Shown here piece after piece: positions 1-62,646 of a stretch of 64,000 nucleotides of DNA (position 1 is the first letter of the stretch; each line of letters opens with the position of its first letter). The stretch is taken from assembly GCA_951406725.2 (NCBI GenBank), contig OX597818.1:16740001-16804000 (forward strand). The letters run 5' to 3'. Position numbers and translations under genes: made by a program. The stretch comes from Octopus vulgaris (taxonomy: Eukaryota). Under the pieces are notes generated by a model. The model saw only the letters and a list, made by a program, of their open reading frames with translations, was not told the DNA's origin and made no database searches.

Positions 1-892
1 AGAAAAAGAGAGAGGCGGAAGTCACCAACGATAGTAGAACTGGAGTGCAAAGCGATGGAAGAGGTAATCCAACATATGACGAGAAATGGGGAAGATTCAC
101 CAGTAGGATCACCAGGAAAGAACTTACAAGTACAAAAACATTCAGACCCACAGACACTCAAACACACAGACATCCAACCGCACAGAAATATAGAGAAACA
201 GATACAAGATGTCTTAGAACCACAGAAACCTAAAAGCATAGACACACAGATGAAACATGCAGAATTACAGTTAAACAAACACACAGACACAATCACAGGA
301 CAGCCAAGAATTACAGAAATACAGAGAAAAAAAACACAAACATGCAAGTGACAAACAGAAGGTTTATAGTGAAAAATAGGACACGCAAAAGTTAAAAGAA
401 TTTCAAAATTGAAAGACATCATGAAAGAGTGAATCCACTGGGGCAGGAGGTGGATGTTGAACCTCGTGCCTCAGTGGTGAATTATGGAAAAGGAGAATTG
501 GTAAGTTGTTATTTCTCTTTAAAGACTATAAAAACTGAGAAAAACCTTTAGTTAAACTTTTTATTGGAGACAAAAAAAAAAAAGGAAAAGCAAGTAAATT
601 TTGTAACTATTGAATGAACAAGTGTTTAAAATTTTTTTTTAAATGTAAGGTGGAAAGGAAAAGGGAAGTCTCAGTTTTGCCTCTGAGCAGGGCTGGAAAT
701 TGTTATTTAAAATGTAGGTTTAAAAAGGAGGGAAAAAAAGGATTACGGTTTCATCTCAGAGCGGGACCGAGATGACTGTCTCATTTTCATTGTAATTTAA
801 TTCATTTTACATTCATTCTTTCAGGTATTTTTTGTTCCCACATGTCTGTGTATATCCCCTCTGTGTTTAGGCCTTGTGCCTGTAATAAAGAA
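1..892 (+). mobile_element. 3' part of a probable non-autonomous L1/Tx1-type LINE (low-complexity ORF1-like remnant plus 3' UTR)
   Basis: Purine-rich Q/K/T/H-rich ORF at 55-351. Ends in TCCCCTCTGTGTTTAGGCCTTGTGCCTGTAATAAAGAA, which resembles the L1/Tx1 tail at 45160-45211 and the SINE-B tail at 43080-43133. Confidence 0.45.
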
Positions 893-7530: not shown

Positions 7531-9099
7531 ATAGTAGACTTACTTCACCACCCAGTTTAATAGCACTACCTTGAGTGTCTTTAGTGGAGAAGTTCACTCT
7601 ATTGTAAGCCTTCAAGCCAGATATTCAAGTTGAAGGCACTTCCAATCTGCCTTCCACCTTGTGGAAACCCTGAAAAAGTGCCATGAGTACTGCCATCTCC
7701 CACTTTGACTAAATAAAGGCATCTACAAAAAGAACCTATAGGCTCATGAACATACCCAAACTTAGGTGTTTAGACTAAAAGTATAAGGCTCCTTTCTGAA
7801 CAGAATGCTAGTCCATCAAGGGTTAAACACCAGATTCCACTGGTATTCACTTTTAGCTGAGTGTACTGGAGTAATGTGGTTCCCTGCTTCCTCAGTAAGC
7901 AATATAAATGTTATAAAGTGGGTTCCTCCTATTGGTGTGATGTGTGACTGCTGGTGTACTGTAGTTGCTGTTTTTCACTAGTAGCTACAGTAGTTACTAG
8001 TCATTGGATACCGTTGTATCTCTTCGTGTCAGAATAGTAATACACTAACTTCTGTCTTACTATTGCTGATAGCTCCACAAGATACCGACTAGAACTGTAG
8101 ACTCTCAACTCTTTGACTCTCGACCCACACTTGACAACCGGCTACTGGTTTATTTAAAATGGCTGTCCCTACCATTTTTTGCTGGGAGGGGTTTATAGTT
8201 TTACCATACAACAATAAAAAAGAAATGTGTTCTCCTTTTAAAGATTGTGAGGAAGAATTTGGTTTCTGTTTCTGGCTAAGTGACTACATAGAGATGTCTG
8301 GTTGGCTTGACACTCTTCTGTCATAGTTTGATCAATTGAAAAGAACACAATATTTTTCTCAGGCAGTCTAAATACAATTAGTAGAGAACCTCAAGTTTGT
8401 TGAGGTTAGTTCCCATTGTAGAAAATATAAACATACAAATCTCTGTTTTTGTGTTGAAAATTATTTTTGTTGAACATTAATAAATTTGAGAAAAGACACA
8501 TAAAGATTGCTTTGAATTGGATGGGAAAACAAAACTAGTCTCCATAAAAACTTATTTTTAATTTACTATATGTAGATGTATTATTATTAAATTACAAGTG
8601 CTTGATGCTTGTCTATTGTCAAGTAGTTTTAAAGATGAGTATTATAAAATAGTCAAGTGTTTATATCACAACTACTTCCTTACTTGCTAAAATGTAGCTA
8701 AAGGAGATCTCTCATTCTATTAAACTAAGTTTTCCTGTTCTGGTTATAATGTTATAAGCTGCCCGATTACTTGGAATTATGTGTGTTAGGACAAATAGAA
8801 AAATATATAAACTTTCAGTATCAACAACAACAATGAGACCATCAATGGGGTCACTTGACTTGCTAGAAATAGCAGCTAAATCTTCCATTTGTCACACCCT
8901 CTAGGGCCTCCTTAGGATACAGTTGACTATGGAAAGCTTGTCTCCAAGGTGCAGACTAACTCCAAGCATTGAGAGCCAAAATAAGTATTGTAAAGCATTC
9001 TATCCAATATTCCAATGACTGCTTCTTCAGCACCTTAGTCACAGCTGAACATTTTGAAAAAGGAGGCGACACACATTGGATGTAGTTCTGCATGCACTC

Positions 9100-9503
9100 A
9101 TCATCATTTAACATCCATTTTTCCATGTTTGCTTGTGTCAAGCATAATTTGTTGAGGCATATTTTTCTCTGGCTGGAAGCCCTTCCTGTCACTAATACCC
9201 ACTTATTTCCAAGTGCAGTAGTATTTTTCCAGGTCCTGATATGTTTTCAGTGGAAGACTGGAAACGAACATCTTCACTTGTATGATGATGATGATACTCC
9301 TTTACAACCATAATATGATGTCTTGACAAGGGCACACACACATGCATGAGACAGGTTTCTTAAAGTTTCCATCTACCAAATCCACTCACAAAGCTGAAGT
9401 TATACAGTAGAAGACAATTCCCCAAGATGCTGCACAGTTGGACTGAACCCAAGGCCACATAGTTACTAAGCAAGCTTCTCAACCACACAACCAGATTTGT
9501 GCC
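9100..9503 (-). mobile_element. Chimeric SINE: SINE-A head/core plus RTE LINE tail
   Basis: Minus strand reads SINE-A head, (TG)n, then GGAAGGGCTTCCAGCC..CATGGAAAAATGGATGTTAAATGATGATG, as in the RTE tail at 53210-53347. Confidence 0.7.
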
Positions 9504-11724
9504 TATAATCTGGTGTGAGGAGGTGACCAAAAAGAATGGGCTGGTCATGCATTGAATGCCTTTGATCATGGATCTGATTCATCAGCATAGACTGAGGTCA
9601 AACAATAACAATGACAGATCTAAGAACTGCAAAATCTCAGCATTTAAATGTTGACCATATGTTAGTGACTGCATATTGGAGGCCAAAATCTCACTGAATC
9701 AACATCCTTTATACTTCAATATACACCATAACACAGTAGGTGTATGTGTGTTACAATGCCAATGTCCATTCTATATACTAAGATCTCTGTAGCATTGTTA
9801 TTTGTAGATTACAAAAGAAAAAGAAAAAAAGCTCTCAGAAGGATATAAGTTAAATCAGTTAACTCAAGCTATCATAGTGGAGCAGATGAAAGCTGATGGT
9901 ATGTCATGACTAATAACTGAGGAAGGCTACATTGGATAAATGGTTCATTAGATTCCATGCTTCTAGACCCTGTAGTATGATTAGTTAATAATTATGTTGT
10001 GGCTGGCTTGACTAATCCCAGATCAACTTCTATATCTTTGTGCAGACCTTCCTTTTCTGCAAGATGCTATCAAAGATGCAAGTATGTAGTGGTATGGCAT
10101 TGTAGTACATGTATGTGTTTGAGCGATGTGGTTCAGTGTAATACAGTAGGGCACAAATTGAAAATCTGCGTGGGATATGCATGTAAAAGTGTGTATGTGC
10201 AAGATACAACTCAGTAAGTGGTACAACAGGATATAGTAAGTACTTCCTCTTTGTGTGTGATGTAGTAGTCCTTTTGCCAAAAAGAATTTTGTGTGTGTGA
10301 CAGAGAGATGCTGAGATATGACTGGCCCTCCTCTGAATATTATGATTTCCTTCTTCAAGAGATACTATGAAATATCCTGTTAAAATATGTTTTTGCCTCA
10401 ACATAAGTTTCCTTATCGTGTTCTTGTATTCTTTTACTTATTTCAGTTGTTGGACTGTGGCCATACTGGTCCACCTGCTTTAAAGTTTATCGTTGACCAT
10501 ATTAAACCTTACCCCATCCAAGTACTCCAGTCTTTTTGTTACATTACTAAGTTACTAGACATAAAGTCTACAACATAAATGACACCAGCTTTTTGACTGG
10601 TGTAAACATAAAGATACCTGTATTCACATGTGCACACATGCTCTCTCACACACACACACTTGATGAACATTTTCCATTAGCATATTAGATTTGATGATCA
10701 CAGCAATGATATCGATATTAAATACATTATATCAGTGACTTGAAATGAAATTTATTTCATCAGCTTTTGCTTATTACTGACGTCATCTCTTGGAAATACT
10801 TCTTTCATTTAAAAGTATTGGTCTTACTGAGTTTTTGAGTTACCTTGTGTGTGTGTGTGTGTGTGTGTGTGTTTGTGTGTGTGCGTGTGCAGTAGCAGGA
10901 GAAAGAGAGATATGGATAGGTAGCTCAGTCTTCATATAGATATGCACATGGACTGATAGATAGACTGACAAATCAGAATTTAGATGTGCAGATAGGTAGA
11001 CCTATCAATTGACTAACTGATAGGTATAATGAGAAATTGAATGAGAGAGAGAGAGAGAGAGAGAGAGAAAGAAATAATGATTATGGGAAATAAGAGATAT
11101 GGCTGGCTCCTGAAGTCTCTTGTATCTCTGACCCAACCACACAGCTTTTTAAATTATTGTGAGATCACTGTTATTATCAGAACTGGTTAAATATCCAATT
11201 TTCTATGCAACCATCAGTTGGGTAGCTCCCTCTTTTCACATTCCTCCCCCAACTCTCTCTGTGTCTATGAAGAAAACTTACAGCCTCTTTCTTCATGGAA
11301 ACTTAGTCTTCTGTGGTGCAGTTCTATATTACCATCCATATCTTATTTCATATGGATTAGAGGAGGGGGTGGGCATTACTTAATCCACTTGTATCTGTTT
11401 GAATCCCCAGATTATTAGGAGATAAGAATCTTGGCTACGTGGTTTCATTTTTGAAGAAAACCAACGGCACATAACTTTATATAGTTAGTGGTCGGGGAGG
11501 AGGGATGATTAGAGGCGGAAGAGTTGAAGATGAGAGAAGCCTAACGTAGAACTAAATGTGTTTACTATGTTTTGGAATTCTGCTTTAATCCATACTTTCA
11601 ACCCAGATCTAGTAGCACAATTGTTGTTTAACCCCAGGTCAACCCTGGTTGTATAGACTTATGGTCATCCACGACTATCCTGTCTTTTCCTGAAGGGCTG
11701 CTTCATCCAATTTGTCATTCTATT

Positions 11725-42399: not shown

Positions 42400-45211
42400 C
42401 CTGTAGACAGGGACCCGGTCACTGAAAGTTAAGTGCATCCTTTCTGGCACACAAAGATTACAGGGACCAGACTAGTGAACTAGTTAAGAAGCAGTTGACA
42501 GGAGCAATTGTCAACAACTGGTGGTAGGCTTCCCTGAAGAGGGCAATTAGAGCAAAATTAATAGCATTTAGCAAAGTTAGCAATAGAAAGGAATAGATTA
42601 GAGGGTGAACTAATTAGCAAATTCAAAGGTTAAAAAGGGCATTATGACCGATGTGTTAGCGGCAAGAATGACCCTTGACCATTTCTTCAAAATAAAACAT
42701 GAAGATTGTATTGTCAAAGCTAAGGCCCATGCGCTTAAACCAGAAGGAACTAAAGCTGGGCCCGAATGAGGGAGACATGACATAAAATGGTATGGGCGTA
42801 TGCTATGCAGCTTCAAGCAGATGTGTGCGGCTTTTCAGCAGCACTTCACACAGCTGTTTGGAGAGGGCAATTGGTCAATGATGGTACTGGACTTCAGACT
42901 TTAAGGCGGCGAGCTGGCAGAAACGTTAGCATACCGGGTGAAATGCGTAGCCGTATTTCATCTGCCGTTACGTTCTGAGTTCAAATTCCGCCACGGTTGA
43001 CTTTTCCTTTCATCCTTTCGGGGTCGATAAATAAGTACCAGTTACGCATTGGGGTCGATGAAATTGACTTAATCCGTTTGTCTGTCCTTGTTTGTCCCCT
43101 CTGTGTTTAGCCCCTAGTGGGTAGTAAAGAAATAGGTACTGGACTTCAGTTCGTACCTAGATGGCTTACTGCAGCTCATGGCAGCTGACACAAGGTTATG
43201 TGAAAAGTCAATAGCAGCTACTGAAATTTGGGAGGCGATGAGTGATTGCACAAGTTGCAGATCACCTGGTTTAGTTGGTCTGTCCTATGAATCCTATTTA
43301 TTCATGCCAGATTTGTTTGGCGACCTCTTGGCAAATGTCTACTACAACTGGCAACAGAATGGGAGAATTCCTAGTGCTGTTAGCAGAGGTGTGGTGACAC
43401 TGTTGAGAAAGGATGCCGACAATGTACTAGAGAATTTTTGGCCCATAACTCTGCTAATCACAGAGTTTAAAATTTTGGCTAAGGTGTTAGTGAAAAGGCT
43501 GATGGAGCTGTTTGGCATTGTACGCTCAGTCTGTCAGAGCTGCCCGCTGTTGCCTCTTTTGTACATATTGGTACTCAAACCACTGCTTCAGAAGTTGGAA
43601 CAGATAAGGGGCATCCCTTTTGAACTGGGACAAGGAAGGGCAGTATCAACATATATGGACGATGTCACCATCATGGTGTTGGACACCTCTGAAGTGGAGA
43701 TGGTTGGCACCATCTTAAAGGAATACAAGTTGGTTGCAGGGGCTAAAATCAATGCTGAAAAATGAGTGGGTTTGTAGTTGGGCTTCTGGAGAGGTAGGAC
43801 GATACCAATGGATGGTGACCAGTTAAACTACTCGAGGAACTGGGATGAGGTAGCCAACAGAGTGGCCAGTCTTACCCAAAAATGGGCTGAGAGGAAGCTG
43901 TCCCTGAAAGGTCAAGCAGTGGTGGCAAATGCTTACGTTGCCTCCATAATCATTTACCACTTGATTGTCGTGCCTTGTCCTGGTTACTGCTTAACCAGGT
44001 TGGAGTGTCTCTTATTTAAATTTTTGTGGAAGGGACGCGTTCAGGCAAGCAGTCAGCCTATTAGCATCCTCTGAGTGACGGATTAGATATGCTGTGGCTC
44101 CTAATGCACAGACACGCTCTTAGGTTATATCACCTGCAATGATTTCTGGATGGTGAACGTGTGTGGGTTTCGTTTGTGAGGCTCGTCTTTCTGCAGCTCA
44201 TCTCCTTGATGGAGCTGCAGTCCTGGGTGAAGAAGAAAACCAAGACTGGGTGCCTGGTGCCTAGAATATTGTCAGGCACCCACAACTCTCTACCTGTCAA
44301 GCAATAGGTTTGGTCGATGTTCTGCTTTAGAAATTTATAGAGAATTAGTGGCGGGAAAGTGCGACAGTGTTCTTGGAGAGACTCTGGGTGCTGACAAGAA
44401 CAAACTGGCTTGTCTGTTCCAGAGGACTTACCGGTTCAGAGCTATCATGAATAATTTCCAGATGCCCTTGGCCTGGCAGTGCTAGGTGGGGGTGCTACCC
44501 ATTCGAGATAAACTCTACAGGCATAGATGTGCTGTCAGACGGGCTTTTCACAGGTGTGCACAGTGACGAAACCATTCTGTATGCCCTTGTTCAATGTCCA
44601 GACATTGCTGACTTGTGGGGTTATGTTGAATAGCTGCTGTCAGGTATGGGACAGATCTGTCTGTTGGCGAAGTCTGTGATGATTGCACTGCTGCCCTCTT
44701 TCAATCAAGCAGACAAGGCAGTTTTCCTTTTCTTGGTGACTGTGACAAGGCTGAAAGGCATGACGGATACGTTCCTCTTTGGTAGAGCTCTCATTGACTT
44801 CTTCAAGTTTCACTTGAAAAGGAAATTGAGAGTGGAGAGGGAAACACTGTCCTCGAGTGAGTTTATTGAAAGCTGAGTGAAAGTTGCTAAAATGGCAAGA
44901 GTGGATAGTACCTCTCTGTGAGTTGGAGAGAGCACTTGCTCCTGGGGTTTCAGGGAAATCTCGGACAGTGGGGTTCCTTAATTATCCCTAGGGGCCTTCT
45001 TGTATCAGGAGGGCCACATCTCTATGATCTTCCCTGCCACTTTTTTTTTTTAAACCCTTTGTACGCTATGCATATATCCCTTTTTCAGTGTATACCATGT
45101 ATACTTTCTTTCATTTTTTTTTTATCATTTCATAATATGTAAACCCCCACACTTTATATCTGTCTTTGTATTGTCCCCCTCATTTTTCGTACTTGTGGCA
45201 AATAAATGAAA
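42400..45211 (+). pseudogene. 5'-truncated, internally deleted L1/Tx1-clade LINE ORF2 with 3' UTR
   Basis: GPGH*KLSASFL, SPGL.GL.YE, NFWPITLL..EFKILAKVL, QSCPLLPLLY, YMDDVT, LSLKGQAVVAN, and a C-terminal ETILYALVQC zinc-knuckle remnant. Tail AATAAATGAAATCATCATC. Confidence 0.92.
42905..43134 (+). mobile_element. Young SINE-B inserted in the L1/Tx1 copy with a 15-bp TSD
   Basis: GGTACTGGACTTCAG at 42883-42897 and 43135-43149; CpGs largely intact. Confidence 0.95.
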
Positions 45212-50784: not shown

Positions 50785-50997
50785 GCAGTGAGCTGGCGGA
50801 ATTGCTATCATCCAGGCAAAATGCTTAGTTGCATTTCTCTTGACTTTGTTCTGAGTTCAAATTCCACTGAGGTCGACTTCACCTTTTGTTTTTTTAGGTT
50901 TGATAAAATGAGTTCTAGTTGAGTACTGGGGTCTATCTAATCGAATTACTTCCTCCTCCCAAATTGCTGGTCTTGTGCCAAAATTTGAAACCAATAT
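50785..50997 (+). mobile_element. SINE family B
   Basis: GGCAGTGAGCTGGCGGAATTG head; tail CTTGTGCCAAAATTTGAAACC. Confidence 0.85.
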
Positions 50998-51824
50998 TAT
51001 AACAGAGATTATAATTGTTAGGGTTAAGCTTACTGTTTGTAGTGTAATATATACACTTCTTTGTCATCACCACAACTATTATTATCATATATCTGTTTTC
51101 TATGTTGGCATGAGTTGAATGACTATATACAGAAGCCCATATACACTCTTCTAAATTCATTGAAAACATATGCACATGTATAAAAGAAATCTATGCTCCT
51201 CCTCCAAAATTTGGTCCTGCGCTTTATGATTACAATATTTTATATTTATTTTATTTTCAACTTAAAGATTCACAAAGCATAATCGCATTGACAAAGTATG
51301 GCTCTTCTGATGCTACATTCACATGCACATAAAAACATTTCTGGTTAATTTCCCAACTAAGTCTACTTCTTTTGTACATCATTTTACAGTCTGTACAGCA
51401 TTTCAAGCTTATAAATTTTGTCGAGCTACCCTTCCTTCTCTTACACACACACACACACATGCACATATCTGAAGCCTCCCTTCCCACTTGCTACATTTTT
51501 CTACTTATTCATGTTTACATGTGTTTCGCTTTTTTTTTTGTCTTGGGGTGTTATTTTCAATTCTAAATAATAACTCCATTGTCACATCCACACACACACA
51601 CACACACGCATGTATAATACACCCACTTGCATCATTTCCCATCGGGTTCATCATATTTCTGCTTGGTTCTTGCCAGCCTGTCTGTTTTATATTGTAAGTG
51701 TTCACTTCATTATAACTAACTTTCCATAAATCTAACACACCCATATAGAAAGAAATAATTTTGCAATTGCATTCACACACATATGTGTTGTGTGTGTGTA
51801 TGTATGTACATATATACATATATA

Positions 51825-51987
51825 GGTGCAGGAGTGGCTGTGTAGTAAGTAGCTTGCTTACCAACCACATGGTTCCGGGTTCAGTTGCACTCTGTGGCAG
51901 CTTGGGCAAGTGTCTTCTACTATAGCCTCAAGCCGAGCAAAGCCTTGTGAGTGGATTTGGTAGATAGAAACTGAAAGAAACCTATCG

Positions 51988-52022
<35 letters not shown>

Positions 52023-52408
52023 ATGTATCAAATGAAATAAATGAAAAACAGGACGCAAAGGATTTTGCGGTACATATGTTTCGGGTTTATAGAACAACTT
52101 ATTGTTACATCAATGCATAGTTGATATAATAGATATAATAGGTAGATCAAAAACCTTCTTCAGCCGCGTACAATTGCTACACCAAAGACTTGTATGTATG
52201 TATATGTTTGTGTGTCTGTGTTTGTCCCCCCCAACATCACTTGACAACTGATGCTGGTGTGTTTACATCCCCGTAACTTAGCGGTTCGGCAAGAGAGACC
52301 AATAGAATAAGTACTAGGCTTACCAAGAATAAGTCCTGGGTCAACTTGCTCAACTAAAGGCAGTGCTCCAGCATGGCTGCAGTCAAATGACTGAAACAAA
52401 TAAATGAA
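51825..52408 (+). mobile_element. SINE-A with an insert of about 165 bp in its internal microsatellite
   Basis: Head 51825-51990, insert 52028-52191, tail 52200-52408. Confidence 0.9.
52067..52167 (-). ncRNA. Type I hammerhead ribozyme with a large stem II loop
   Basis: GCGG-CTGAAGA-AGGTTT..(about 65 nt)..AAACCC-GAAAC-ATAT-GTA-CCGC. Perfect stem I, palindromic ACATATGT stem III, GUA triplet. Confidence 0.8.
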
Positions 52409-58617: not shown

Positions 58618-60556
58618 TATAATCATTATTATTAAGAGGGTTATGATGGAAATGTTAGTCATCATTTGTGTGCCTGATTAAAGGCCATGATCCGATGTAT
58701 TTATTTATGTCACTTTATGTTCTGGTTTTTCAAAGGATACTGATCTTGAACCTGTATTTTATCTGAATTTCAATAAGTAGTAATGCTGATAATAATAACA
58801 ATTATAAAGTGAGCTCCAGAGAAACTGACCTTGACTTTCTTCAAAATGTGTGGGTCTCCATGTTCAGAAATCCTCATTAATATTTAATTTTCAGTCCTGT
58901 TTCAGACACCCTGAATGTCCTTATGAGCAAAGTAGGCAATCTGGTATCAATATCCACTTGCATGATAAATGATGAATATCTCAACCTCCCAGTTCACTCT
59001 CAATATCATAGATGACCACATATGAACATAGACACAGTCGGACCCAAATTCACTGATCCCTGACATAATGAAATGTAAACAGTCAATGTGAAAGACACCA
59101 GCTGATCAAATTGATGATTGTTCATACCCCAACCTTGTAGAGAAACAAAGTAGCAGGTTGAGTATAGTGTCATATTACTTGCATATAGCAGTCATGAATG
59201 AAAGGAAATTCAGTATCTTTCTGGAGAACATTTTATACCTTACATTGTTTCAGTTTACCTTGCTGTCATAAATGGACACCAGATATTCTAAAAATGTTAC
59301 TTGCAATAGACTGGCAGCCTGTCCAGGCAGTGGCAGTGGTGATTCATTTACTTTATTCCTTATAACTGGCAGGAACTGTGAGAGCTGGAGTTCGCTACAG
59401 CAACAAACTGCGCCTTTTGCATATTCACATGGCCCAGAGTTTGTCTGTCTTGTTGTACATAATGCTGACGATAGCCAAATGGCATGAAATGCATTCACTA
59501 TTTCAGCAGAAGGTGTCGTGAAATGACTGTTGGTGTTTTGATACTTATTGCCAAAAATGAGAATCTTCTGAATGGCAAATTGCAATGCAAATAGCTTTTT
59601 TACTGGTCAAATGTATTTGAACTGATTTATTTAGTATTTGTGTTTTACTGTATGGTTGGTCTACTTGTTTTACTGTATGTGTTGGTCTACTTGTGGTATG
59701 AAGTGCTCAGTTTGTGTTATTTGTTGGGGTTTGTTGTAAGGCGATTGGGATCCCAAGCTATCATCACAGCATAATTCATGATGATCTAATATATTCTTTT
59801 CTTTTTTATACATTAAATGCTTTTATATTTGTGTGGATCAAATGAGGTACCTGGTAGTACTCTAAGTGTATTTGTCATTTTACTTTCTTAACTATGTCTT
59901 GACATGTGAACTGTGATTATTGTAGGGGTATAGTAGGTTAGTTAGTTCACACAGTTTGGTATTCACTAGTTTTAAAGTGTAGTAGTTGTGTTAATGGTTA
60001 GTCTTTGTTTTTAAATTGTGTTAAGGTGTTTGAAGTGTTACTGTAGGTAAGCTAATGGTTAGTTTCAGTATTTAAGATACCATGAGCTTAGCCTCCATCC
60101 AAATATAACCTACCATTTGTGTCACAGCTATTGTTATAGTCATTTAAAAAGTGAGAAGAGCTGAAGCATGTAGAATTGAATAGAATACTGGTTCCACTGA
60201 CATATGAAAACTCATTACTGAAATTCTTATTGCTGTTTCCACATAGCCACTTAATCCTCTTCATATAACACAGACTTAGACTTTTTACTATATGCTGCTT
60301 TTTTACTTTTTTATGTTTTATATTTTTCATTCTATTTTGTATAAAAATTTTTAGTGCTACATGAAACAAAAGATACTTTAAAAAAAAAAGCATGCACTTT
60401 CTCTACTCCTCCTTCCCCTCATGCACACAGTCACTCTACCCCCACCCTTCTTTCATCTCCTGCACATACAAACACACACACCCACATACAGTTCTATATT
60501 TAAGAGATGAGGAATTATGTACATTATTTACATATATTTGTCCTCATCTTGTTGTT

Positions 60557-60602
60557 AACACAATGTTTTGGCTGATATACCCTCCAGCCTTCACCAGGTG
60601 TC
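60557..60602 (-). ncRNA. Inverted, decayed hammerhead motif in the inverted pLTR
   Basis: Minus strand GACAC-CTGGTGA-A-GGCTG..CAGCC-AAAAC-ATT-GTGTT; core positions A6 and G12 mutated. Confidence 0.55.
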
Positions 60603-60723
60603 TTGGGGAAATTTTGAACCTGGGTTCTCATTCCTATGGTATTTTTCAATGTTATTATTTATTATTATTATTATTATTCAAGTCATTGCCTGGAATTGAA
60701 CTGGGGGTTAGTAGCCTGTTCAC

Positions 60724-61207
60724 AGCCTGTCCACCCTATGTGAAAGGCCTCTCCGAAAAGATACAAAAGATATGCGGCCCATATGACATCAGGACAGTAT
60801 TCAAGAGCAGTACAACACTTTGCAAATATCACCTTCGAGTAAAACCACCAGTAGAAGAGAATATGACCAAAAACTGCTTGTATGCCATCCCATGCAGCTG
60901 TGGTGGGTTATACAAAGGCACAACATGCCACCTCCTCAAAATAAGGGTAGACAAACATCGCAAAGCTGTGATACAGGGAGATATTGATAAATCGGGTATA
61001 GCTGATCATGTATGGAAAAATGGAAACCACCTCCCCCTGTGGGATGAAGTTAAAATAATAGACAAAGAACACCACTGGAAAATACGAAAACTAAAAGAAG
61101 CAGTACATATGCTAGGACACAATAACCTCCTAAGCAGACTGAATGCAGATATGAGTAGCATATGGGAACTGGTATTAAGGAAGGATAGGAAAATATTAGA
61201 TTTATAA
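60724..61207 (+). pseudogene. Penelope GIY-YIG endonuclease domain fragment
   Basis: PYVKGLSEKIQKI..YDIRTVFK..TL, NCLYAIPCSCGGLYKGTT..LKIRV.KH, SGIADHVW..NH..WDEVKII.KE..W..RKLKEA. The upstream part of ORF 60392 is read-through of non-coding DNA. Confidence 0.9.
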
Positions 61208-61305: not shown

Positions 61306-61398
61306 TCCCTGAATAATAATAATGATGATGATGATGGTGGTAGTAGCGGTGGTGACAAATACCTTAGGAATGAGAACCCAGGTTCGAAATTTCCCCAA

Positions 61399-61444
61399 GG
61401 CACCTGATGAAGGCTAGAGGGTATATCAGCCGAAACATTGTGTT
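61399..61444 (+). ncRNA. Minimal type I hammerhead ribozyme in the Penelope pLTR
   Basis: GGCAC-CTGATGA-A-GGCT..AGCC-GAAAC-ATT-GTGTT; stem III reads ACAT where ACGT is expected. Confidence 0.72.
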
Positions 61445-62646
61445 AACAACAAGATGAGGACAAATATCCGTCAAATGTAAATGATGTATATAATAAACAC
61501 ACACACTCTCTCTGCCTTACTAGCAAACACATTTTCACACACACACACACATTTTCACACACACACACACACACTAACAAAATCACGTTTTCACACGCAC
61601 TAACAAACATATTTTCACACGTACAACACACACACAAACACATTTTCATATTCTAACAAGCACATTTTGACACATACACACCGTCCCTTCCTCCCTCCCC
61701 TCATTTCCTAAGCCACAAATTAATCAACAGAATAACTTGACATTCAAGAAGTAAATAAACAAAAATGACCAAAATAATAACAAAGAATTCATTTGTAAGA
61801 GAAAATATAAAAAAAAAGAGCAAAAAAACAAAAACAAAAAAAAACTCCTTTTACAGTTTTTTTTTAATTATTATTTTGTTTGGGGACAGGAAAAAAATGC
61901 ATGTTTTTATTTAACCAATGAAAATAGAAACTTATATATTTATCATGAAGACAGCAAAAGCTGTTGATAGAATGAAAATAATTAAGTGCTATGAGAAATA
62001 TTATTTCTTTAGAACAACAGAGAACCTCAGGAACCAGAGACTGTTTTCCTTTTCTTTTTTGTAGTTAAAGCCCTTTTTTTTATCAATATGAAATTATCAA
62101 TATGTAAGTCCATTTGTCTAAATCTTCCACCCACCTACTTGTCACCCTTCTCAGTCAGTCTCTGGTTAAGTCTTAATTATGATGGTACAACAGAATCATC
62201 AGTCTATGAAATATTCATAATTTTCTTTCCTAATATATGTCTGGCACTCAGAATAAGCCAGACTGTCTGTGAGGTGTGTGATAGGGTGGTGCTGACAGTG
62301 GGGACAGTAGTAGCTGCATAGCTGGTGGTGGGTCTATTAAAATCAGTTATATTCATGGTAACTGTAGAGGGAAGATTGAATGATGAACTGTAGAAAACAT
62401 ATATCTTAATTAGCTACATGGGAGAGGTAGGTTAGTGAGAGAAGAATCAAAATAAGAAAATGTTTTTATAAAAAAAGAAAAAGATTGGACCAGAACAGAG
62501 AGGTAAAAATGATTTCACCAGCTAACTGCTTGCCAAACACATTGTAATTAAGTTCTTGTTATGAAGGCAGTGAATTGCATGGAATAGTAGACCACCAGAC
62601 TATACTTATGTACTTATGTTAAGAATTCTCCATCAAGGTGGTTGCA

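What the first reader, a model, noticed from the sequence alone, without database searches (positions are those of the whole stretch)
52028..52191. Hammerhead module with a stem II loop of about 65 nt nested antisense inside a SINE
Seen: an insert in the SINE-A internal (TA)n that is largely a ribozyme: GCGG/CCGC stem I, CUGAAGA, GGUUU/AAACC stem II enclosing an AT-rich loop, GAAAC-AUAU-GUA. The large loop is atypical of minimal hammerheads. Inference: a very small mobile ribozyme unit, with the loop as possible cargo or a variable region.
Basis: partly seen in the sequence, partly recalled or inferred. Interest (0 to 1): 0.75.

Follow-up and report, generated by a model that had tools for sequence, protein, structure and literature searches.

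The report
Penelope retroelement tip with oversized hammerhead
This stretch is the broken-off tail end of a common jumping gene (a Penelope-like retroelement) that landed backwards inside another repeat; it carries that element's usual, predicted self-cutting RNA, whose second arm is several times longer than in the published relatives compared here, and cutting is untested.

Summary
The hammerhead is real: minus strand 52167-52067, with the predicted cut at 52071/52070. It is not a tiny mobile ribozyme of its own. The 166-nt insert is the 5'-truncated 3' tip of a Hydra-clade Penelope-like element (PLE). It sits in the SINE's (TA)n between 15-nt direct repeats and is absent from 5 of 5 other SINE copies aligned. 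Relatives end at one of two 3' points, start at variable points, often come as inverted pairs, and run back into an RT + GIY-YIG ORF (15 of 20 ORF-picked loci; one pLTR-ORF-pLTR locus). The family has 2,840 exact core matches in the genome (control 0). The 'loop' is 62 nt here, inflated by a 9-nt duplication. It is predicted to fold as an interrupted long helix II, with two compensatory changes. Published Hydra hammerheads have 3-10-nt loops, so this is a size variant; spike-moss PLEs offer a 29-35-nt precedent. The scan noted oversized PLE hammerheads before, in another genome. The single copy is predicted to misfold, and cleavage is untested. Verdict: new variant of a known kind, modest interest.

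The parts
51825..52011 (+). Host SINE, 5' part and start of its internal (TA)n. tRNA-type A/B-box-like head (label recalled); the B-box-like stretch differs from the other five copies.
   Evidence: (families D17, D8)
52012..52026 (+). Left copy of a 15-nt direct repeat (target-site-duplication-like; low complexity, overlaps the element's own TA-rich end)
   Evidence: identical to 52193-52207
52027..52192 (-). 5'-truncated 3' tip (pLTR end, short no-tail class) of a Hydra-clade Penelope-like element
52067..52167 (-). Type I hammerhead motif: 4-bp stem I, CUGAAGA core, A.C at 10.1/11.1, GAAAC, 2-bp stem III with palindromic ACAUAUGU; predicted cut 52071/52070
52084..52155 (-). Enlarged domain II: proximal helix GGUUU/AAACC enclosing 62 nt, predicted to continue as an interrupted helix
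52105..52129 (-). Inner 9-bp hairpin of domain II (predicted; its 5' arm is deleted in the 51-nt subfamily)
52124..52141 (-). 9-nt tandem duplication private to this copy among 39 aligned rows
52054..52069 (-). Competing hairpin (CGCAAA/UUUGCG) that would sequester the 3' strand of stem I
52193..52207 (+). Right copy of the 15-nt direct repeat
52208..52405 (+). Host SINE, 3' part
   Evidence: (family D18)

Best explanation
The insert is the 5'-truncated 3' end of a Hydra-clade Penelope-like retrotransposon sitting in the (TA)n of a SINE, and its hammerhead is that element's terminal-repeat ribozyme, which likely cuts the tandem precursor RNA only as a dimer or with protein help. Shown: family membership, linkage to an RT + GIY-YIG ORF, two 3' end classes, variable 5' ends, inverted pairs, and a hammerhead in both terminal repeats of a full-layout locus. 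Inferred: the GIY-YIG nicked the SINE's TA tract; reverse transcription began about 44 nt downstream of the cut site on uncut (or re-ligated) RNA and stopped after 166 nt. In the parent, the upstream-repeat cut would fall about 190 nt before the ORF's open frame and could set the RNA's 5' end. The enlarged domain II is likely a tolerated peripheral helix extension. This copy is likely inert: it is single, antisense to the SINE, and predicted to misfold.
For: Family: 40 of 1074 candidates scored, 87-100% identical; 2,840 exact 16-mer matches, control 0; 224 for the focal subfamily's 18-mer. Ends: in 30 loci, 5' starts range over reference positions 405-915 (focal 911) and 3' ends fall in a short class or an about 80-nt tail class (12 of 30 by script; 13 by eye). 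Pairs: 24 divergent inverted pairs within 5 kb among the first 100 matches. Linkage: L069 runs ORF end > 3' UTR > module (85% to focal) on one strand. 15 of 20 loci picked by the endonuclease end carry the module downstream on the same strand. 6 of 11 loci picked by paired hammerhead 16-mers hold the ORF. L189 is inverted copy + hammerhead + ORF + UTR + hammerhead, 4,684 nt apart. The tail continues into the 5' UTR and ORF start. ORF motifs fit Hydra: DKT, CxCX5C, CxxC, CxH, no CCHH (definition PMC8557442 section 11). A palindromic stem III, 4-5 bp helix I and long helix II are described for PLE hammerheads (PMC4209133). Optional tails, protein-assisted cleavage and uncut RNA as insertion template are reported for another PLE (PMC11167929 passages).
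Against: No intact full-length ORF of the focal subfamily was found. Its link to the ORF is a chain through longer, 72-92% identical relatives, not one copy nearly identical to the focal one. 5 of 20 ORF loci lacked a downstream module in the fetched stretch, and 5 of 11 hammerhead-pair loci lacked the ORF (3 were too short to hold one). No RT tree was built and Pfam gives no RT or GIY-YIG hit on these ORF pieces, so the clade rests on motifs. No cleavage or expression data. The hammerhead fold costs about 8 kcal/mol against the predicted minimum, and stem I has probability near 0 in three copies tested.
Confidence: 0.93

Rival explanations
1. An independent, very small mobile ribozyme unit (retrozyme-like) that moves as a unit of about 166 nt and carries the loop as cargo.
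For: The insert is short, has a 15-nt flanking direct repeat and has many genomic relatives. One other copy, L002, starts within a base or two of the same point. Animal retrozymes are reported to derive from PLE terminal repeats (bioRxiv 10.64898/2026.07.22.740005; abstract, introduction and part of methods read).
Against: Most relatives extend further upstream by variable lengths. The insert's ends do not coincide with the cut site. Among the first 100 listed matches, the only same-strand neighbours within 5 kb are 4,684 nt apart and flank an ORF. Domain II is homologous across subfamilies rather than exchanged.
Confidence: 0.03
2. A composite SINE-plus-hammerhead element that propagates as one unit.
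For: Family copies sit inside this SINE's central (TA)n in 2 of 30 loci (L001, L020) and in L145.
Against: These insertions differ in length and junctions, and L020 lies in the opposite orientation. 5 of 5 other SINE copies aligned from the window lack it. The (TA)n preference of Hydra PLEs explains the recurrence (PMC8557442).
Confidence: 0.02
3. The parent is the young Neptune-type PLE whose ORF lies upstream of the module in L145.
For: L145 has a 717-aa RT + GIY-YIG-type open frame 2.6 kb upstream of the module on the same strand.
Against: 0 of 20 other loci of that family carry the module; they end in a different 3' sequence. L145 is a nested insertion.
Confidence: 0.01
4. Within the PLE reading: the enlarged domain II is a selected functional module (protein-binding or switch element) rather than a tolerated extension.
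For: It is kept at 36-74 nt in all 83 anchored copies, including near-identical young copies. Compensatory changes U-A to C-G (6 rows) and G-C to A-U (4 rows); 11 double-change cells against 5.9 shuffled, 5 of 500. A second Hydra-type family has a 57-nt domain II of similar predicted shape. A competing 3' hairpin also covaries (2 of 500).
Against: The double changes amount to about two lineage events, and the shuffle ignores relatedness. The inner hairpin shows almost only wobble changes and loses one arm in the most recently active subfamily. Domain II is less conserved (82%) than the flanks (86%, 91%). The focal domain folds no better than shuffles (z -0.28). A third Hydra-type family has an 8-nt domain II.
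Confidence: 0.25

Closest known systems
Hydra-clade Penelope-like elements and their hammerheads (Craig et al. 2021, PMC8557442; passages, section 11 and supplementary files S1/S2 tables seen)
   Same: C-terminal GIY-YIG without CCHH; DKT, CxCX5C, CxxC and CxH motifs; (TA)n targets; inverted truncated copies; optional tail; type I hammerhead at the 3' end, mostly with an extra or mismatched base before stem II and a short self-complementary stem III.
   Different: The 26 Hydra rows of File S2 have loop 2 of 3-10 nt; here 72 nt lie between positions 10.1 and 11.1 (34-72 in the family). The unit is about 4.7 kb or more with a 2-3 kb microsatellite-rich 3' UTR, against generally under 3 kb. The hammerhead sequence differs from that of Hydra-1_Obim, so this is another family.
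Minimal dimer-type hammerheads of metazoan PLEs (Cervera and de la Pena 2014, PMC4209133; parts 1-2 of 4 read)
   Same: 4-5 bp helix I without a defined loop 1; long helix II; palindromic 15.2-16.2 region; mostly solitary truncated copies; pairs on opposite strands 100-700 bp apart.
   Different: Helix II there is 6-8 bp and G10.1-C11.1 is called highly conserved. Here domain II is a long interrupted helix, and 10.1/11.1 is A.C in 62 of 83 copies, A.A in 7 and G-C in 7.
PLE-X1 hammerheads of spike mosses (File S2 of PMC8557442)
   Same: PLE terminal hammerheads with a long loop 2 (35 and 29 nt), marked as deviating from the canonical structure.
   Different: Plant, endonuclease-less, rDNA-targeting elements of another clade; shorter domain II.
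Animal non-LTR retrozymes (bioRxiv 10.64898/2026.07.22.740005, part 1 of 5 read; PMC7229834, search listing only)
   Same: Non-coding repeat with a type I hammerhead related to PLE terminal repeats.
   Different: Retrozymes are head-to-tail tandem units; none was seen among the first 100 matches, and this sequence is contiguous with a coding PLE.

Membership tests
Type I hammerhead ribozyme | Core CUGANGA ... GAAA ... UH in order, with helices I, II, III | tested here: met
   CUGAAGA in 80 of 83 anchored copies (the anchors favour intact cores)
Type I hammerhead ribozyme | G10.1-C11.1 pair | tested here: not met
   A.C here and in 62 of 83 copies, G-C in 7. An unpaired or mismatched position before stem II is common in the published Hydra rows.
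Type I hammerhead ribozyme | Helices supported by covariation | tested here: inconclusive
   Helices I and III are nearly invariant; helix II has U-A to C-G in 6 rows and its extension G-C to A-U in 4 rows of 39; few independent events
Type I hammerhead ribozyme | Match to an Rfam hammerhead model | tested here: not met
Type I hammerhead ribozyme | Site-specific self-cleavage | not testable with these tools
   No assay; the monomer is predicted to misfold
Penelope-like element (EN+) | RT plus GIY-YIG ORF upstream on the same strand | tested here: met
   15 of 20; 6 of 11; Pfam itself gave no hit
Penelope-like element (EN+) | Pseudo-LTRs with hammerhead, inverted 5'-truncated copies, optional tail | tested here: met
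   L189; 24 inverted pairs in 100 matches; tail in 12 of 30
Hydra clade | DKT in place of DKG; CxCX5C linker; CxxC and CxH; no CCHH | tested here: met
   PADKTGNW in L185 and L180 (DKI in L170, L183, L188); CNCISASEC, CQLC, CIH; definition
Hydra clade | RWK motif at the N-terminus | tested here: inconclusive
   RRIRWAA seen: RW kept, K not
Hydra clade | Insertion into (TA)n | tested here: met
Hydra clade | RT phylogeny with reference Hydra sequences | not tested
   Reference proteins were not available as tool sequences
Non-LTR retrozyme | Head-to-tail tandem units each with a hammerhead | tested here: not met
   (first 100 of 2,840 matches, one contig only)
Non-LTR retrozyme | Abundant circular RNA of unit length | not testable with these tools
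   No raw RNA reads were offered
Neptune PLE (family of L145) | ORF followed by this 3' end | tested here: not met
   0 of 20 loci

The most novel reading that the evidence does not exclude
Hydra-clade PLEs of this genome carry a class of hammerhead whose helix II has grown into a 50-70 nt structured domain, in at least two families, that Rfam models miss. Together with a hairpin that hides stem I, this domain would act as a switch: the RNA stays uncut while it serves as template, and is cut only when the element's protein or a second copy refolds it. That would give a direct handle on why PLEs keep slow hammerheads.
Probability: 0.2. Interest if true: 0.6.

Novelty: new variant of a known kind. 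Interest (0 to 1): 0.3.

Why it matters
The locus itself is ordinary: a dead PLE fragment in a TA tract. The modest point of interest is that a recently active PLE family with thousands of copies keeps an intact hammerhead core across a domain II far longer than in the published Hydra-clade set, and Rfam misses it, so PLE ribozyme counts in such genomes are probably too low. The near-identical young copies, and one locus with both terminal repeats, give natural constructs for the open question of what PLE hammerheads do and whether they need a dimer or protein.

Tried and rejected
Neptune parent: suggested by L145, L138 and L077 and rejected by 0 of 20 loci. The L138 juxtaposition was not tested further; its intervening sequence was not found upstream in other copies. 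One upstream search included microsatellite and returned mostly noise; it was repeated with a cleaner query. RNAalifold on 39 rows did not return the hammerhead, only local competing hairpins. Free folding of the focal 111 nt gave z 0.55. Rfam gave nothing relevant. Pfam does not recognise the Hydra ORF pieces (one sub-threshold Desmo_N hit ignored). ARAGORN found no tRNA in the window. No ORF piece of the parent lies in the window. Expression: no RNA holder listed; contigs of four runs cover the module at far lower summed depth than the SINE and show no ends; this is not evidence either way. Literature: six searches found no paper describing this family or a 50-70 nt domain II in animal PLE hammerheads. 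Lunse et al. 2017 (PMC5785218), the most relevant paper, is not held and may contain such variants, as may the supplements of PMC4209133, which I did not open. Rows dropped: 39 of 81 distinct hammerhead rows were hand-picked for diversity for alignment A2; copies with more than 2-3 changes in the anchors were never collected.

Full report
Observation. The predicted cut is between 52071 and 52070. A relaxed descriptor finds only this site in 64 kb, and 1 of 200 shuffles gives a hit. Rfam does not detect it. The stretch 52027-52192 interrupts the central (TA)n of a SINE and is missing from the five other SINE copies aligned. It is flanked by an identical 15-mer, which looks like a target-site duplication, although the sequence is low in complexity. 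The genome is 2.8 Gb in 227 contigs; that it is octopus-like is my inference from recalled repeat families and from notes, not a tool result.

It belongs to a large family. A search of the own genome gave 1074 candidates, of which 40 were scored at 87-100% identity. The 16-mer across the 3' core and cut site occurs 2,840 times exactly, against 0 for the control. An 18-mer of the focal subfamily occurs 224 times. In the 30 loci fetched, 3' ends fall into two classes: a short one like the focal copy, and one with an about 80-nt tail (12 of 30 by script; 13 by eye). 5' ends are scattered over about 500 nt of reference. Candidates fall from 1074 at the tip to 129 about 300 nt upstream and 27 about 850 nt upstream; part of this drop reflects subfamily divergence upstream. 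Among the first 100 listed matches there are 24 divergent inverted pairs within 5 kb, and one same-strand pair, 4,684 nt apart. These are the marks described for Penelope-like elements (PMC8557442 passages; PMC4209133).

Finding the parent. A first lead, a Neptune-type ORF next to the module in L145, failed: 0 of 20 other loci of that family carry the module. Walking further upstream through T-rich and TG/TA-rich UTR led to a different ORF. In L069 the ORF end, the UTR and a module 85% identical to the focal one lie in order on one strand, interrupted only by two later insertions. Of 20 loci picked by the endonuclease end, 15 carry the module downstream on the same strand. For one of the five misses (L169), a focal-type module lies 8.7 kb downstream, outside the fetched stretch. 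Of 11 loci picked only by paired hammerhead matches, 6 hold the ORF. L189 shows the full layout: inverted copy, hammerhead, tail and 5' UTR, ORF (one frameshift), 2-kb UTR, hammerhead. The tail runs on into the ORF start in L180, L183 and L189. The protein has DKT, CxCX5C, CxxC and CxH and lacks CCHH, the features that define the Hydra clade, which also targets (TA)n. No tree was built, and Pfam does not see these ORFs.

How this copy likely arose (inferred). The endonuclease nicked the SINE's TA tract. Reverse transcription started at the short end point, about 44 nt past the hammerhead cut site, and stopped after 166 nt, at a 3-4 nt ATA(C) match to the target. Because the copy spans the cut site, its template was uncut or re-ligated there. 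This agrees with the Anolis Poseidon element, where uncut RNA is the main insertion template, two start sites define the optional tail, and the hammerhead cleaves only with protein (PMC11167929 passages). Two other insertions into the same SINE site (L020 in the opposite orientation; L145) have other lengths and junctions, so they are independent events.

The ribozyme. Stem III is 2 bp with the palindrome ACAUAUGU, and two copies are predicted to pair over 8 bp (-9.0 kcal/mol). This is the dimer-type design of metazoan PLE hammerheads, whose activity is low in vitro (PMC4209133; review PMC6765202 passages). In 83 anchored copies CUGAAGA is kept in 80, and 10.1/11.1 is A.C in 62, A.A in 7 and G-C in 7; the anchors favour intact cores. 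On 39 hand-picked rows, core columns are 99% conserved, stem I 98%, domain II interior 82%, and the flanks 86% and 91%. As single RNAs, the focal copy, a majority-type copy and a young copy all fold away from the hammerhead: stem I probability is near 0, and the focal hammerhead fold is -16.4 against -24.4 kcal/mol. A hairpin over the 3' strand of stem I is partly responsible and shows some covariation (5 double-change cells, 2 of 500 shuffles for the score).

The large 'loop'. Between A9 and G12 lie 74 nt here, 65-66 in 53 of 83 copies, 60-61 in 16, 51 in 9, and 36-69 in the rest. The focal excess is a private 9-nt duplication. Most rows fold as a long interrupted hairpin, with z-scores from +0.9 to -3.9 and -0.28 for the focal copy. 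Compensatory changes are U-A to C-G in six rows and G-C to A-U in four. They give 11 double-change cells against 5.9 in shuffles (5 of 500), but they are about two lineage events and the test ignores relatedness. The inner hairpin has almost only wobble changes and loses one arm in the 51-nt subfamily, whose copies are nearly identical to one another and so the most recently active. A second Hydra-type family has a 57-nt domain II of similar predicted shape, a further repeat has 55 nt, and a third Hydra-type family has 8 nt. Domain II is therefore a variable peripheral extension, not cargo; whether it has a job is open.

Comparison with what is known. It works like, and by motif is, a Hydra-clade PLE terminal hammerhead. 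The 26 published Hydra rows have loop 2 of 3-10 nt, and two spike-moss PLEs have 29 and 35 nt (File S2 of PMC8557442). Six searches found no description of this family or of so long a domain II in animal PLEs. Lunse et al. 2017 could not be read, and the supplements of PMC4209133 were not opened. An earlier, unchecked note of this scan reports oversized hammerheads in Penelope-type elements of another octopus-like genome (e1-8673761); a sequence look-up found no look-alike.

Verdict. Observation confirmed, interpretation partly supported. A truncated PLE tip with a size-variant hammerhead: new variant of a known kind, interest 0.3.

Noticed in passing
window 60365-61207 (+), with inverted repeat 60527-60648 / 61353-61474: Open frame ending in a Penelope/Poseidon-like GIY-YIG stretch (motif recalled; Pfam gave no hit), with an inverted partial copy (I15): probably another truncated PLE.
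   Followed up: partly
window 43136-43765 (+): Degenerate reverse-transcriptase remnant (RVT_1, E 1.8e-6, just below the cut-off).
   Followed up: partly
L145 4330-6480 (-) and L149-L168: Young Neptune-type PLE family (627 candidates, 97-98% identical). Its 3' end holds a hammerhead-like stretch with UUGAUAA or UUGACAA in place of CUGANGA; not analysed.
   Followed up: partly
L170 (two copies), L173, L146 (oriented coordinates): Second Hydra-type family whose hammerhead has a G-C at 10.1/11.1 and a 57-nt domain II predicted as a long interrupted hairpin.
   Followed up: partly
L182 about 167-260 (+) and L176: Another hammerhead with the same ACAUAUGU stem III palindrome, an 11-bp stem II and a 33-nt pyrimidine-rich loop; parent not sought.
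   Followed up: no
L146 (oriented 7883-9874), L188, L065: Third Hydra-type family with long open frames and a short hammerhead (8-nt domain II).
   Followed up: partly
L189 4040-6564 and related ORFs: The parent ORF has long Asn/Ser/Thr-rich low-complexity linkers of variable length between thumb and endonuclease, and a 2-3 kb 3' UTR full of TG/TA and T-rich tracts that attracts further insertions.
   Followed up: partly
L025 / L029 (C27, 3.7 kb apart), L142 / L143 (C9, 16 kb apart), L196 (8.1 kb spacing): Local segmental duplications that contain a family copy, so some matches are not independent insertions.
   Followed up: no
window 50845-51005 and about 14 more places (D11-D16): A second abundant SINE-like repeat family, separate from the host SINE.
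   Followed up: no
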